Below are positions 224 through 23,891 of a stretch of 24,000 nt of DNA, in pieces; position 1 is the stretch's first letter, and each line of letters begins with the position of its first letter. The DNA lies in the NCBI GenBank assembly GCA_963769935.1, contig CAVYNY010000010.1:567890-591889 (forward strand). The letters run 5' to 3'. Made by a program: the position numbers and the translations under genes. The notes beneath the pieces are model-generated. The model worked only from the letters and a program-made list of their open reading frames with translations, searched no databases and was not told the origin of the DNA. The DNA comes from an uncultured delta proteobacterium. GTDB lineage: Bacteria > Desulfobacterota > Desulfobacteria > Desulfobacterales > JAFDCJ01.

Positions 224-908
224 AGTTCCTTCCAGAGAAACGTTATACCCGGCTTCTCCTTCCCTGCAGTGGGTCGCTTGGGCCTCACTTCCCCACCTTA
301 CCGGTCCAGCATTTACGTTCCTGACCATCGGTACTATGATCCGCTAAGACTTCCAGAAAGTCCATCTCGGGTTTGTTCGCTTTTCGCTATCCTCCCCCGA
401 TACCTTGTATTGCTCCTTTGCTTTCGTCTCGCTGGTCAGGTTAGAGCGCCCCTTCACAGCGCCTGGATTCTCGCCTCGTTGCGCTGGCCGGCACCCTCCA
501 ACCGGTTATTGTACACAAGGAAAACATCTGGATCTCCCGAGTTCCCAAGTTACCCCTATGAGCACATGCCCTGGTCTCAGACCCCGGTGGTGTCCCGAAT
601 GCTTGCCATAGCGCATGTGGGACTGCTGCCTTCCGGCCAGATGAACGCCGTCGGCTTTCTCTCATACAAGCGGAACTTATCCCAAGGTCCACAACTATAC
701 ATTTTTCGGGGCTCAATACACAGCCTGCATCCTTGATCCATCCGGCTTCGGACTCCCGTCTCCGGGTTGGCCCGCGGATTCACTACTGACCTGGTGGCTA
801 ACCTTTAGTCAGGTGGGACTTGAACCTAGGTGATCCTCACCCACTGGGTAACAATATCGAATTTCACCTCCTTGGAAGGTTCCCAACGATTCGGGCTTAG
901 CTGGGCAC
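1..908 (-). mobile_element. Group II intron, 5' part (ribozyme domains before and including the start of the intron ORF); the element runs off the left edge
   Basis: Minus strand 908->224 is about 685 nt with stops in every frame; the track shows only short overlapping ORFs there. An ORF starts at 223 and its product matches the N-terminus of group II intron RT/maturases. The minus-strand sequence at 908 reads GUGCCCAGCUAAGCCC, close to the GUGYG 5' consensus. That is also where similarity of the flanking exported-protein ORF stops. Domains V/VI lie outside the window and cannot be checked. Confidence 0.55.
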
Positions 909-4036: not shown

Positions 4037-4820
4037 TCAGGGCTGCAGGCCGACATTCGCGAGAGCGGTCCGGGCTGCTTCGGCGCTCAGCCGCTCGACG
4101 TGGGGCCTGACCTGCCGGATCACCTCCGGACTGAGAAACCGAAGATCGCTTTTCCAGGGAAAATCCGGCAAGGATGATTGGCTGCAGGGCGCCTGCGCGT
4201 AGCTTGCCAGGGTCGCCGGCCGAGTCTGGAAAATCGCGACAACGATGTTGGCATAGGGAGTTGCCGTGTTTTGGAAGGGCGAAAAAAATTGGGAGAGTCC
4301 CGAAAGAGCCTTGGTCCGGGTGTAGATTCCATAGCCTTTGGTGGCCACCGGATCATTAGCGATCTTAAAGCAGGCAACCTGCGGCCACCGGCCGGAGTCG
4401 TAGCTGCTTACGGAGATGATCAGATCCAGGCGGTTTTCTTCGGCGGTTTGGTTTATAAAGGCCTTGAGATCATCCCCCATCCACCCCGTAACGGCGTTGA
4501 GGATACTGTTTGACATCGACTGCTTCCAGTCTTGCGGGGCATTGCCCGCGATGGGGATAAACGTATAGCTGCCGCGGGCCCGCAAGTCACTTTCGATTGT
4601 CCGGGTGAGGTAACCCGGAATGTTCCAATCCACATTGTAATCTTTGGTAAAGCTGTCGAAGCGCAGCGATCCAACATCCACGTGGGTCATATCAGTCTCC
4701 AGCAGATTGAGGATGCCGATTCGGGCTTCCGGCGGCAACTGCAGCCGTACCGGTTGCGAACCCGCGCAACCCAGTTACGCTCATCATAATCAGAAACAAA
4801 GCAGGACGAAAGATGTGCAT
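4037..4820 (-). pseudogene. Hypothetical lipoprotein with a 1-nt frameshift inside the signal peptide (or an N-terminally truncated cytoplasmic version starting at TTG 4738)
   Basis: ATG at 4820 has a strong RBS (AAAGGAG, 9-nt spacer) and encodes MHIFRPALFLIMMSVTG... The main 233-aa ORF frame, read upstream of its TTG start, gives *LGCAGSQPVRLQLPPEARIG. Removing one A in GTAACTG (about 4774-4777) yields MHIFRPALFLIMMSVLGCAGSQ..., a textbook lipobox. The body has no family I can recognise. Confidence 0.55.
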
Positions 4821-4897
4821 GTGACAGGGCTCCTTTATTTTAGCAGCTAATTGACTGATTTTACGAAAAATGCCTGCTTAATTGTAATGGAAATTAT

Positions 4898-5116
4898 GAA
4901 AATCCCAAGCACCAAAAACCAAATCCCAAACAAATATCAATGATTCAAATTCAAAATTCCAAACAATTGAACCGTCCACAGTTGTGCCAACGGCATCATC
5001 ACCGGCAGACGAGGGGTTGAGAAGCGATGCGATACAACTATTTTGAATGTTTGGGTTATTGAATATTCAAAAATTTGCTATTTATTTGTAATTTGGTGCT
5101 TGAGATTTGGGATTTT
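4898..5116. repeat. Heptamer-periodic inverted-repeat element (about 219 nt) with a GC-richer unique core
   Basis: The left arm 4901-4963 is built of 7-mers: aatccca agcacca aaaacca aatccca aacaaat atcaatg attcaaa ttcaaaa ttccaaa. The right arm 5041-5116 is its imperfect reverse complement (tttggtgcttgagatttgggatttt versus aaaatcccaagcaccaaa). The core 4967-5040 contains the stem AGTTGT...ACAACT. A related module, ccaaaaaccaaat, recurs at 10839-10851. Confidence 0.5.
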
Positions 5117-5283
5117 ATTTTCTCACATCTTCTGGTCAAACTGGCTTAGAAGGCACTTTGGCGTGACCCTGGTGCATGTGATGACTCCTAACGAATCACT
5201 AATAGCTTCGACCTAAATTGAGCAATTAAATTGAGAAGATTGCTACAATCGCATGTGCAGGCAGGGACGTCCTCTGAGCTTTC

Positions 5284-10596: not shown

Positions 10597-11035
10597 TGCC
10601 GCCTCTTGCTAAGTGCATGTATTCGTAAATACGCTAACGTATAAGAATAAAGCCGAACTATTGACAAAATACTGTTTTCCTGTGAATACGTTACTGTAAT
10701 TACGAAATAGAGTACTACTTCTTTAGGTATAAGGTTTGTCCTCCGGTCCTTGGGCAACTGTTATCAAATGGGATCGGAGGAACCTTTTCGGGGACGCCGC
10801 TCGAAGCGGTTGGTTTAGATTAAACTAAACACGAAACGCCAAAAACCAAATATCAAGCACCAGAAATTCTTGCCAAAAGATTCGTTTTTAACTTTTTACA
10901 TCGCCATCATTTTAGCTAATCAATCTGCCCTGACTGCCCTGAAAAATAACGAAAATTCAGACAATGGCTCATTATTTTCATTTGGGTAGTCTGTCAATTT
11001 TATAAAGATCGATAGAGCGAAGCGATTCAATAATT

Positions 11036-11072
11036 TTAGGCACTTTAGGCACTTTAGATCATTTTAGGCACT
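11036..11072. repeat. Tandem 9-mer array TTAGGCACT (3 good copies and 1 degenerate) in the inter-kinase spacer
   Basis: ttaggcact at 11036-11044, 11045-11053 and 11064-11072, with degenerate ttagatcat at 11054-11062. aggcacttt also occurs at 5151-5159. Confidence 0.6.
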
Positions 11073-11144
11073 TTTTTACAATACAATATCAGTATGTTAT
11101 AAAAGCTGCCGGAAGTTAAAATAAATAGGACACAGCAGAATTGA

Positions 11145-16481: not shown

Positions 16482-16560
16482 ATCACGAAAATACGAAATA
16501 TAGAAAGCACGAAATTTATCTTATCTTTTTCGTGTTTTCGTCCTTTCGTGCTTTCGTGAT
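16482..16560. repeat. Imperfect 33-nt inverted repeat built of (t)ttcgtg(n) 7-8-mers, between the asmA-like and rsbR-like genes
   Basis: Left arm 16482-16514: atcacgaaaatacgaaatatagaaagcacgaaa. Right arm 16528-16560: tttcgtgt tttcgtcc tttcgtgc tttcgtga t. 26 of 33 positions are complementary, with a 13-nt loop. T-runs flank it on the plus strand only. Confidence 0.6.
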
Positions 16561-23691: not shown

Positions 23692-23891
23692 CTGTCCGTT
23701 GTCGGTTGTCAGTTGCAAAAGTAAGATCGCTGGTCTATTTTATGAATCATGATTCTACGAATTGCAAATTGACGATGCATCAGTAGTTTTTTAATTTAGG
23801 AACACAGCATATAGGACGCAATTCCGTTGATCGTCAAGGTTTAATGATTTTTCCCACAAGTTACTGACAACGGACAACAAACAACAGACAG
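23692..23891. repeat. Heptamer-armed inverted-repeat element (about 200 nt) in the divergent nth / PP-loop intergenic region
   Basis: Left arm 23692-23713: c tgtccgt tgtcggt tgtcagt. Right arm 23863-23891: actgaca acggaca acaaaca acagaca g. About 18 of 22 positions are complementary. A 149-nt AT-rich core lies between them. The left arm begins 5 nt upstream of the nth ATG. Confidence 0.55.

What the first reader, a model, noticed from the sequence alone, without database searches (positions are those of the whole stretch)
4898..5116. Intergenic ~220-nt palindromic element with heptamer-repeat arms and a GC-rich core: MITE-like element or structured RNA
Arms of about 65-75 nt (4898-4966 and 5041-5116) are imperfect reverse complements. 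They are internally 7-nt periodic (aatccca, agcacca, aaaacca ...).

They flank a core of about 75 nt with clearly higher GC (ccgtccacagttgtgccaacggcatcatcaccggcagacgaggggttgagaagcgatgcgatacaac). The core has its own closing stem, AGTTGT/ACAACT, and a small hairpin, tgccaacggca.

Modules of the arm recur at 10839-10862 (ccaaaaaccaaat, atcaagcacca). A similar arm-core-arm layout with different heptamers occurs at 23692-23891, and an arm-loop-arm hairpin built of 7-8-mers occurs at 16482-16560.

The size, about 200-220 nt, matches the in-gene inserts in the two kinases. Together these suggest a previously uncharacterised family of heptamer-based palindromic elements. They could be non-autonomous mobile elements, or substrates of a repeat-generating process. 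The unique cores might encode small RNAs.
Basis: seen in the sequence. Interest (0 to 1): 0.6.

Follow-up and report, generated by a model that had tools for sequence, protein, structure and literature searches.

The report
Miniature transposon carrying conserved heptamer hairpin
The flagged palindrome is the inner part of a 347-base gene-less jumping element (an ISAs1-type MITE) that landed just after the start codon of a lipoprotein gene. That is an ordinary kind of element, except that its 7-base-periodic arms stay almost unchanged across species while the rest of the element decays.

Summary
The palindrome 4898-5116 is the interior of a 347-bp element (4825-5171). This element has terminal inverted repeats starting with CAGGG and a perfect 10-bp target-site duplication, GTGCATGTGA.

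- **Empty site:** removing the element and one duplicate restores the ribosome-binding site, ATG and following codons exactly as in the intact orthologue of a sister species.
- **Copy number:** the arms occur about 170 times in this 8-Mb genome (60 paired elements). They are present in all 22 other sampled species of the genus.
- **Other copies:** several copies in other species have 7-10/10 duplications at the predicted positions.
- **Family:** CAGGG ends plus 10-bp duplications are the published hallmarks of ISAs1. No intact ISAs1 transposase, and none with matching ends, was found, so the mobiliser is inferred.

The small-RNA reading is not supported: there is no Rfam match and no covariation.

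Two things remain unexplained:
1. The arms stay about 91% identical to their consensus even in copies whose ends and core have decayed.
2. The 83-nt core shows a significant codon-phase signature but has no start codon.

Earlier agents of this scan found ISAs1-type MITEs with heptamer-hairpin cargo in other genomes.

Verdict: a new member or variant of a known kind, of moderate interest.

The parts
4815..4824 (.). Left copy of the 10-bp target-site duplication, GTGCATGTGA. On the minus strand it reads TCACATGCAC and holds the ATG (4820-4818) now used by the lipoprotein ORF.
   Evidence: direct repeat D5, 100% identical, spacing 357; 10/10 match at the position predicted from the inverted repeats.
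4825..4841 (+). Left terminal inverted repeat, CAGGGCTCCTTTATTTT (family consensus CAGGGCTCCGTCATTTA). Its reverse complement, AAAGGAGCCCTG, places a GGAG 9 nt upstream of the re-created ATG.
4842..4897 (+). Left subterminal segment of the class A element. It is only weakly conserved between copies.
4898..4965 (+). Left arm: 68 nt, about 9 phased CAAA-type heptamer units, C-rich and G-poor.
4966..5047 (+). Class A core. It is 82 nt here (1-nt deletion relative to the 83-nt consensus) and GC-rich.
5048..5116 (+). Right arm: 69 nt with a 2-nt insertion, TTTG-type heptamer units. It has its own conserved sequence and pairs with the left arm at about 72% of positions.
5117..5156 (+). Right subterminal segment.
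5157..5171 (+). Right terminal inverted repeat, TTTGGCGTGACCCTG (consensus TTTGACGTTACCCTG).
5172..5181 (.). Right copy of the target-site duplication, GTGCATGTGA. On the minus strand it holds the original ATG CAC of the lipoprotein gene.
5185..5189 (-). Original Shine-Dalgarno sequence (AGGAG) of the interrupted gene, 7 nt upstream of the original ATG. The element now separates it from the ORF.
   Evidence: One search compared with the orthologue.
4037..4820 (-). Interrupted lipoprotein-like gene. The start codon was re-created by the duplication, and there is an additional 1-nt frameshift in the signal peptide.

Best explanation
The region is a 347-bp non-autonomous transposable element (MITE) at 4825-5171. 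It was most probably moved in trans by an ISAs1-family DDE transposase.

**Inferred mechanism:** the transposase recognises the CAGGG-type terminal inverted repeats and makes cuts staggered by 10 bp at the target. Repair of those cuts gives the 10-bp duplication GTGCATGTGA.

**Effect at this site:**
- This copy landed right after codon 2 of a lipoprotein gene.
- The duplication re-created ATG CAC on the far side of the element.
- The element's left end, read outward, supplies a new GGAG ribosome-binding site. The original RBS and ATG now start a 13-codon dead-end frame that runs into the element.

**The flagged palindrome:** the 220-nt palindrome is internal cargo. It consists of two 68-nt arms made of phased 7-nt units around an 83-nt core. 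The same arms occur in other chassis in this genome: about 112-nt cores, 38-nt cores and coreless forms.

**What the arms do (inferred, not shown):** after insertion the arms are kept by selection while the ends and core decay, so the host or the element uses them. The most likely use is as a long RNA or single-stranded-DNA hairpin, or as a phased protein-binding array that works in either orientation.
For: **Shown**
- *Ends and duplications.* A 40-copy consensus reveals outer inverted repeats CAGGGCTCCGTCATTTA ... TTTGACGTTACCCTG. The window copy has a 10/10 duplication.
- *Other copies.* Duplications at the predicted positions score 9/10 (C22:439589), 10/10 (L025), 8/10 (L021, L022) and 7/10 (L026, L027, L182). 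In G000, 0.03 hits of at least 8/10 are expected by chance over the 67 combinations tested, and 2 were found.
- *Empty site.* The G010 orthologue (78% amino-acid identity) reads AGGAG-7nt-ATG-CGT-ATA-TTT without interruption. G000 reads AGGAG-7nt-ATG-CAC-[element + duplicate]-ATC-TTT.
- *Presence/absence between species.* In the argF-argB spacer the element is present in G000 and G008 and absent from 10 species. Of 20 G008 copies, at least 5 sites are 250-370 nt shorter in G000.
- *Copy number and range.* There are 174 arm hits and 60 pairs in G000. All 22 other sampled species of the genus have matches.
- *ISAs1 hallmarks.* Inverted repeats of 14-22 bp starting with CAGGG and a 10-bp duplication are reported for this family (PMC11946415). 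ISArsp11 has IRL CAGGGCTGATGC... and a 10-bp duplication (PMC6305408). An ISAs1 element in a sister species starts with CAGGGTGA....
- *Arm constraint.* Identity of the arms to their consensus is 0.91 whatever the age of the copy (slope 0.10). Core identity tracks decay of the outer ends (r = 0.72, slope 0.58). In the orthologous pair at argF-argB the arms are 87-91% identical, the core 54% and the neighbouring coding sequence 71-81%.

**Inferred**
- The identity of the transposase.
- The role of the arms.
Against: - No transposase with matching ends was found.
  - G000 holds only two ISAs1 fragments.
  - ISAs1 transposases occur in 5 of 22 relatives, but their loci lack CAGGG..CGTCA ends. The one whose terminal repeats were delineated (L162) shares only CAGGG with the MITE.
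  - No pair of the MITE's repeats at IS-like spacing was seen in G000 or in the genus.
- Only 2 of 60 paired elements in G000 keep intact ends and a duplication. Most copies, and all class B, class C and coreless forms, show no sign of this mode of movement.
- At four of six sites shared with G008 the G000 arms are partly lost, so the arm constraint is not universal.
- The left and right arms show no compensatory change: 72.0% paired against 71.8% after permutation. This argues against a purely structural constraint.
Confidence: 0.8

Rival explanations
1. The mobile and selected unit is the heptamer-armed palindrome itself, a gene-less relative of the heptamer-armed cassettes that elsewhere enclose the small S23p/Avd-like four-helix-bundle gene. 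It would spread by an unknown mechanism that targets palindrome centres and intergenic spacers. The ISAs1-type ends would be one chassis it happened to nest in.
For: - The same arms occur with four kinds of interior and with different outer flanks.
- Coreless 135-nt copies sit in the centre of other heptamer palindromes.
- One copy carries a nested foreign MITE.
- Seven PF05635 genes in G000 are each flanked by inverted heptamer arrays.
- The argF-argB spacer holds a different heptamer palindrome in each of 6 species.
- CAAATNN arrays are about 46-fold over control in G000.
- Earlier notes e1-3838629, e1-3901757 and e1-5184149 reached the same nesting view on other DNA.
Against: - None of 37 S23p loci in the genus carries these arms.
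- No target-site duplication or defined ends were found for the arm unit alone (by eye).
- For the window copy itself, the ISAs1-type ends and duplication fully account for the insertion.
Confidence: 0.3
2. The element is a structured non-coding RNA gene family (sRNA or cis-regulatory RNA). Its unique cores would be the functional part and the arms a closing stem.
For: - The fold is better than shuffled sequence, mainly on the minus strand (z = -4.0).
- A promoter-like site at the right end reads inward on the minus strand: TTGACC-16-TAAAAT, 10/12.
- Core length is kept at 83 nt in 24 of 40 copies.
Against: - No Rfam family matches at the gathering score or at E<=1.
- RNAalifold finds no consensus structure in the core on either strand.
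- The arms do not covary and can pair in three registers.
- Orientation relative to flanking genes is random: 22 ++ against 23 --.
- Cores are the least conserved part apart from the ends.
- The promoter spacing is not conserved in other copies (by eye).
Confidence: 0.07
3. The element carries, or recently carried, a small protein-coding frame of about 56 codons running from the left arm through the core to a TGA in the right arm. Heptamer gain or loss in the arm would switch it in and out of frame with a conserved upstream ATG.
For: - In one frame, differences among 24 ungapped cores fall 206/176/243 on codon positions 1/2/3.
- The synonymous share is 0.372, against 0.281 +/- 0.027 in a neutral simulation using the observed substitution spectrum (P<0.0005).
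- The frame is open in 22/40 copies, against 8.8 in shuffles.
- One metagenome copy (P0001) has one extra heptamer that joins the conserved ATG to this frame and gives a 60-aa ORF.
Against: - The consensus frame begins right after a TGA and has no start codon.
- Openness is not significant against a descent-from-consensus null: 17/24 against 13.9 +/- 2.3, P = 0.13.
- There is no Pfam or NCBIfam match.
- No longer parent gene exists in the genome or in the fetched loci.
- The 58 database clusters look like gene-caller ORFs on element copies.
- The window copy has a 1-nt deletion in the core.
Confidence: 0.1
4. It is a REP/REPIN-like palindrome moved by a RAYT (Y1 transposase), or a palindrome generated on the spot by slippage and strand switching.
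For: - G000 has 11 PF01797 (Y1_Tnp) matches.
- Heptamer arrays are known slippage substrates (PMC4679880).
- Different heptamer palindromes occur at one orthologous spacer in different species.
Against: - REP units are 20-40 nt and leave no target-site duplication. This element has 15-17-nt CAGGG inverted repeats and a 10-bp duplication.
- About 170 dispersed arm copies share one non-repetitive sequence of unit variants, which local genesis cannot produce.
Confidence: 0.03

Closest known systems
ISAs1-family insertion sequences (ISAs1, IS1358, E. coli H-repeat elements, ISArsp11) and MITEs that use their ends
   Same: Terminal inverted repeats start with CAGGG (ISArsp11: CAGGGCTGATGC...; here CAGGGCTCCGTC...). 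The repeat length is in the 14-22-bp range. The target-site duplication is 10 bp (PMC11946415, PMC6305408).
   Different: The element has no transposase gene. No ISAs1 copy with matching ends was found in this genome or genus. The interior is a 220-nt heptamer-periodic palindrome rather than a remnant of a transposase gene.
ERIC/IRU of enterobacteria and Correia (CREE/NEMIS) elements of Neisseria
   Same: These are also intergenic, imperfectly palindromic, about 100-350-bp multi-copy elements. They have size variants caused by internal insertions and are found inside operons in both orientations. They would be expected to fold as long RNA hairpins (established knowledge, not tested here).
   Different: They have different ends and duplications (Correia: TA). 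Their arms are not built from phased 7-nt units. RNase III processing or mRNA effects are not shown for the present family.
Heptamer repeats: cyanobacterial STRR, TAACTGA repeats of Beggiatoaceae (PMC4679880), paired heptanucleotide-repeat sites of Geobacter metallireducens (PMC2700814)
   Same: All involve 7-nt unit periodicity, intergenic location and lineage-wide enrichment. In Geobacter the repeats were drawn as paired inverted sets.
   Different: Those are short tandem arrays of one unit. Here each arm is a fixed string of about 9 different units, copied as a whole and carried inside a transposon.
Heptamer-armed S23p/Avd-like cassettes (PF05635, as in ORF-bearing 23S rRNA intervening sequences), as noted by earlier agents of this scan
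   Same: The design is the same: inverted arrays of 7-nt units around a central cargo. Seven such cassettes exist in this genome.
   Different: This element holds no S23p gene. Arm sequences are unrelated: 0 of 37 loci match. The S23p arms are perfect tandem repeats that differ from copy to copy.

Membership tests
MITE (miniature inverted-repeat transposable element) | Small (<600 bp) and without a transposase gene | tested here: met
   The element is 347 bp. Its longest frame is about 56 codons, with no family match.
MITE (miniature inverted-repeat transposable element) | Terminal inverted repeats | tested here: met
   CAGGGCTCCGTCATTTA at the left end; the reverse complement of the right end is CAGGGTAACGTCAAA.
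MITE (miniature inverted-repeat transposable element) | Target-site duplication of fixed length | tested here: met
   10 bp: 10/10 in the window and in L025; 9/10, 8/10, 8/10 and 7/10 in other copies.
MITE (miniature inverted-repeat transposable element) | Multi-copy, with filled and empty orthologous sites | tested here: met
   60 pairs in G000. Empty sites are seen in G010, in the argF-argB spacers and in G000 against G008.
ISAs1-derived element | Inverted repeat of 14-22 bp starting with CAGGG | tested here: met
   definition from PMC11946415.
ISAs1-derived element | Duplication of 8-10 bp (typically 10) | tested here: met
   PMC6305408.
ISAs1-derived element | A full-length ISAs1 partner with the same ends | tested here: not met
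   G000 has only fragments. The ISAs1 transposase loci of 5 relatives lack CAGGG..CGTCA ends, and the one element whose repeats were delineated (L162) shares only CAGGG. No inverted pair of the MITE's repeat lies at 1-2 kb. Many of the relatives are fragmented MAGs, so absence is not proven.
Structured RNA family | Match to a curated family, or conserved base pairs with covariation | tested here: not met
   Rfam; no covariation.
Structured RNA family | Discrete transcript | not testable with these tools
REP/REPIN with RAYT | Units of 20-40 nt as inverted doublets, with no target-site duplication | tested here: not met
   The arms are 68 nt, and the element has 15-17-nt ends and a 10-bp duplication.
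S23p (PF05635) heptamer-armed cassette / IVS-type element | Encloses an S23p four-helix-bundle gene | tested here: not met
   No such ORF lies inside. The arms are absent from 37 S23p loci.
S23p (PF05635) heptamer-armed cassette / IVS-type element | Inverted arms built of 7-nt units | tested here: met
   this element; cassettes in G000.

The most novel reading that the evidence does not exclude
The heptamer-periodic arms would be a functional module that the host keeps after the transposon has died. It would be an orientation-independent device in which the first-transcribed arm is always a 68-nt C-rich, G-poor, unstructured tract. The second arm then sequesters that tract into a long hairpin. 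Alternatively, the arms could be a phased array of CAAAT sites for a dedicated protein. ISAs1-type and other chassis would merely deliver the module. In this reading the 83-nt core is a decaying or phase-switchable mini-ORF. The heptamer palindromes seen across many phyla would then be one widespread, undescribed class of regulatory insert, and not junk.
Probability: 0.15. Interest if true: 0.8.

Novelty: new variant of a known kind. Interest (0 to 1): 0.5.

Why it matters
- **Classification:** the work turns an unexplained 'palindrome' into a defined transposon with exact ends, a dated insertion, and a concrete effect on a gene start. The element splits the RBS from the ORF and supplies a replacement.
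- **Arm constraint:** the 7-nt-periodic arms are held at about 91% identity across a genus whose genes are only 70-80% identical, even in copies that can no longer move. That is evidence for post-insertion use of heptamer repeats, a repeat class noted for decades (STRR, TAACTGA, Geobacter sites) without a known function.
- **Test material:** the family offers dozens of natural replicates of different ages for testing that function.

Tried and rejected
- **Autonomous partner:** searched with PF13808, NF033564 and PF01609 in the genome and the genus, with fuzzy searches for the terminal repeat in G000 and the genus, and with an exact-pattern scan of genome contigs. None was found. The best DDE gene in G000 is IS5-family. 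Apparent repeat pairs at 1.1-1.6 kb were chance matches or another palindrome family.
- **S23p link:** tested and not met at sequence level.
- **Orthologous site of the window copy via the kinase 3' end:** paralogues and low identity made it uninformative. It was solved instead through the downstream lipoprotein gene.
- **Neighbouring genes of copies:** they are not homologous to one another, so the flank conservation belongs to the element and not to a repeated operon.
- **DGR-like adenine mutagenesis of the core:** rejected. A positions are the most conserved, and the substitution spectrum is dominated by G>A and C>T.
- **Transposase-remnant origin of the core peptide:** no tblastn hit lies in any long frame.
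- **RNA.alifold:** it returned empty structures even for the arms, so its negative result for the core carries little weight. The explicit pair counts carry the argument.
- **P0004:** this 536-aa hit is an unrelated low-complexity tandem-repeat protein.

Full report
**1. The observation**

The stretch 4898-5116 is an imperfect palindrome. The repeat finder gives 42-nt arms that are 76% complementary, plus inner arm pairs. The fold beats dinucleotide shuffles, with z = -2.4 on the + strand and -4.0 on the - strand.

The arms are 7-nt periodic. Autocorrelation is 0.52-0.57 at lag 7 and 0.43-0.47 at lag 14, against a background of 0.25-0.33. The core shows no periodicity. No Rfam family matches at the gathering score or at E<=1.

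**2. A genus-wide family with modular interiors**

- *Copy number.* The element matches many places in its own 8-Mb genome. Separate profile models of the left and right arms find 174 arm sites. These resolve into 60 left-right pairs and 54 solo arms.
- *Arm sequences.* The two arms are not simple mirror images. Each has its own conserved string of about nine different CAAA-type units.
- *Interiors.* They fall into classes:
  - none (135-nt palindromes, 4-6 copies);
  - about 38 nt (3 copies);
  - about 83 nt (class A, 15 copies, including the window copy);
  - about 98-116 nt (class B, about 19 copies);
  - a few singletons.
- *Location.* All copies are intergenic. Neighbouring gene orientations are 22 ++, 23 --, 10 +- and 5 -+, so there is no orientation preference. 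The neighbours are not homologous to each other.
- *Range.* All 22 other sampled species of the genus have matches, as do 3 of 18 other families in the order. Public records with the same ends and arms are Desulfobacterales MAGs.

**3. True boundaries, terminal repeats and target-site duplication**

A consensus of 40 class A copies from at least 9 species shows that conservation extends about 67 nt to the left and 58 nt to the right of the arms. It ends in inverted repeats: CAGGGCTCCGTCATTTA ... TTTGACGTTACCCTG.

In the window this defines an element at 4825-5171. It is flanked by the perfect 10-bp direct repeat GTGCATGTGA (4815-4824 and 5172-5181).

At the same predicted positions other copies show:

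| Copy | Duplication match |
|---|---|
| C22:439589 | 9/10 |
| L025 | 10/10 |
| L021, L022 | 8/10 |
| L026, L027 | 7/10 |
| L182 | 7/10 |

In G000 an unbiased test of all CAGG...CCTG combinations around the 60 pairs finds exactly these two G000 copies. The chance expectation is 0.03.

**4. Empty site and effect on the gene**

The gene downstream on the minus strand has a 78%-identical orthologue in G010. There the sequence reads AGGAG, 7 nt, ATG CGT ATA TTT CGG... without interruption.

In the window, AGGAG, 7 nt and ATG CAC lie at 5189-5173. The 347-bp element follows, then the duplicated TCAC ATG CAC, then ATC TTT CGT.... Removing the element and one duplicate restores the orthologue's architecture base for base in layout.

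The element therefore inserted after codon 2. Three consequences follow:
- The duplication re-created the start codon.
- The outward-read left end (AAAGGAGCCCTG) puts a GGAG 9 nt before that start codon. The family consensus also contains this GGAG.
- The original RBS and ATG now open a 13-codon frame that ends inside the element.

The gene also has a 1-nt frameshift in its signal peptide.

**5. Presence and absence between species**

In the argF-argB spacer the class A element is present in G000 and its closest relative G008. Ten species have a bare spacer of about 55-65 nt. Six others carry other fillings built of unrelated heptamers.

Syntenic sites in G000 could be identified for 15 of 20 class A copies in G008:
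- 2 are shared in full;
- 4 are represented in G000 by partial arms;
- at least 5 are 250-370 nt shorter in G000.

**6. Which transposase?**

Published descriptions give ISAs1 elements inverted repeats of 14-22 bp starting with CAGGG and a 10-bp duplication (PMC11946415). ISArsp11 has IRL CAGGGCTGATGCAAAGTCG and the duplication GGAACAGCAC (PMC6305408). The element meets both marks.

The partner was not found:
- G000 has only two short ISAs1 fragments. Its best DDE gene is IS5-family.
- Five of 22 relatives have ISAs1 transposases. Their loci lack CAGGG..CGTCA ends, and the one whose terminal repeats could be delineated (L162, CAGGGTGAATTTG...) shares only CAGGG with the MITE.
- The terminal-repeat pattern is enriched in the genus, with 93 hits against about 13 for the control. 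It never occurs as an inverted pair at IS spacing.
- One species, G015, has six copies of a private repeat variant, which suggests a recent burst there.

Mobilisation by an ISAs1-family enzyme is therefore an inference from hallmarks and is not shown.

**7. The arms resist decay**

Mean pairwise identity among the 40 class A copies:

| Part | Identity |
|---|---|
| Left arm | 0.856 |
| Right arm | 0.819 |
| Core | 0.52 |
| Outer ends (ungapped) | 0.32 |

Measured against the consensus, outer-end identity ranges from 0.49 to 0.89. Core identity follows it (r = 0.72, slope 0.58). Arm identity stays near 0.91 (slope 0.10).

In the argF-argB pair of G000 and G008, three rare arm variants are shared, which marks the two copies as close relatives. 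Even so, the arms are 87-91% identical, the core 54%, the flanks 24-60% and the adjacent coding sequence 71-81%. A second pair gives 82-87% for the arms and 72% for the core.

Copies with dead ends cannot be kept by selection for transposition. The constraint therefore acts after insertion.

It is not a base-pairing constraint of the usual kind:
- Left and right arms pair at 72.0% of positions, against 71.8% when arms are re-dealt among copies.
- They pair almost as well when slid by 7 nt: 68% and 60%.

The constraint is also not universal, because four shared sites have lost part of the arms in G000.

What uses the arms is unknown. On either strand the first-transcribed arm is C-rich and G-poor (about 20 C to 3 G), and the second arm is its complement. 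This suits a device that works in either orientation. This last step is inference only.

**8. The core**

- *Neutral-looking decay.* The substitution spectrum is dominated by G>A and C>T. Adenines are the most conserved positions, so there is no DGR-like signature.
- *Unexpected codon-phase signal.* One frame shows the classical pattern: differences of 206/176/243 at codon positions 1/2/3. The synonymous share is 0.372, against 0.281 +/- 0.027 in a neutral simulation that uses the observed spectrum (P<0.0005). Frame openness is not significant (17/24 against 13.9 +/- 2.3).
- *No start codon.* The frame runs from a TGA at the start of the left arm to a TGA in the right arm (56 codons).
- *No relatives.* There is no Pfam or NCBIfam match and no long parent frame in the genome.
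- *Database hits.* A search of 1.84 billion proteins finds 58 clusters of 45-110-aa ORFs that look like gene calls on element copies. In one of them an extra heptamer joins the conserved upstream ATG to this frame.

I leave this as unexplained. The core may descend from a coding sequence, or it may be a weakly selected mini-ORF.

**9. Relation to the rest of the window and to earlier work**

- 16482-16560 and 23692-23891 are heptamer-armed palindromes of unrelated sequence.
- 10840-10865 is a fragment of the right arm.
- CAAATNN arrays are about 46 times over control in G000 and are enriched throughout the genus.
- Seven S23p (PF05635) genes in G000 are each flanked by inverted heptamer arrays of their own. 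None of 37 such loci in the genus has the present arms.
- Earlier agents of this scan reported ISAs1-type MITEs with heptamer-hairpin cargo in other genomes (e1-3838629, e1-3093281). They also reported gene-less heptamer-armed repeats in a Desulfobacteraceae-type genome (e1-3901757). The scan has therefore found this kind of element before on other DNA. I reached the ISAs1 assignment from the consensus ends before reading those notes.

**10. Limits**

- Most relatives are fragmented MAGs, in which insertion sequences are often unassembled.
- Class B, class C and coreless forms were not resolved to ends or duplications.

Noticed in passing
window 5173-5189 (minus strand) and 4818-4836: The lipoprotein gene's original RBS and ATG lie on the far side of the element. 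The RBS now in front of the ORF (AAAGGAG) is made of the element's terminal repeat. The gene also has a 1-nt frameshift in its signal peptide when compared with the G010 orthologue.
   Followed up: yes
L060-L083 (argF-argB spacers of 16 genomes): One orthologous spacer of about 60 nt is bare in 10 species. It holds the class A MITE in 2 species and other fillings built of unrelated heptamers (CTCGATA/CTGGATA, GCGCATA, CCTGAAA and others) in 6 more. It is either an insertion hot spot or a site of local genesis.
   Followed up: partly
G000:C19:91485 (locus L014), within the right arm: A different MITE of about 100 nt, with CCCTGTTAAAT...ATTTAACAGGG ends, is nested inside a class A right arm. The same end sequence recurs next to the arm pair at C11:605592.
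   Followed up: no
G000:C20:493936-494045 and C34:75701-75810: This is another palindrome family. It has ATTGAAG-type heptamer arms around a conserved core of about 70 nt (GGAAGTCGC.G.GCTCCGTCATT...), and part of that core resembles the MITE's terminal repeat.
   Followed up: no
G000 class B copies, e.g. C13:71742, C17:153233, C14:77962: Class B elements share the arms but have a 112-nt core with CACGAAA direct repeats and a GATCGC hairpin. They also have a CAGGGCCGGCG...GCCGGCTG inner frame and further conserved flanks (GGTTTCAGGTGTCAG on the left, CCTGAGAATTGACATGACACCCG on the right). No duplication was found for them.
   Followed up: partly
G000 coreless copies C32:60706, C16:98588, C33:72884: Coreless or short-core arm palindromes sit in the centre of GGAGTAT-type heptamer palindromes, giving an onion-like nesting. 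The same GGAGTAT units flank an S23p gene at C9:239319.
   Followed up: no
G015: Six copies carry the private terminal-repeat variant CAGGGCTCCGTCATG, which suggests a recent burst of this MITE in that species.
   Followed up: no
window 572-822 (minus strand): A group II intron domain match is present (RF02005, 105 bits).
   Followed up: no
window 11040-11075: A short tandem array of a 9-nt unit (AGGCACTTT) lies in the spacer upstream of the 989-aa kinase operon.
   Followed up: no
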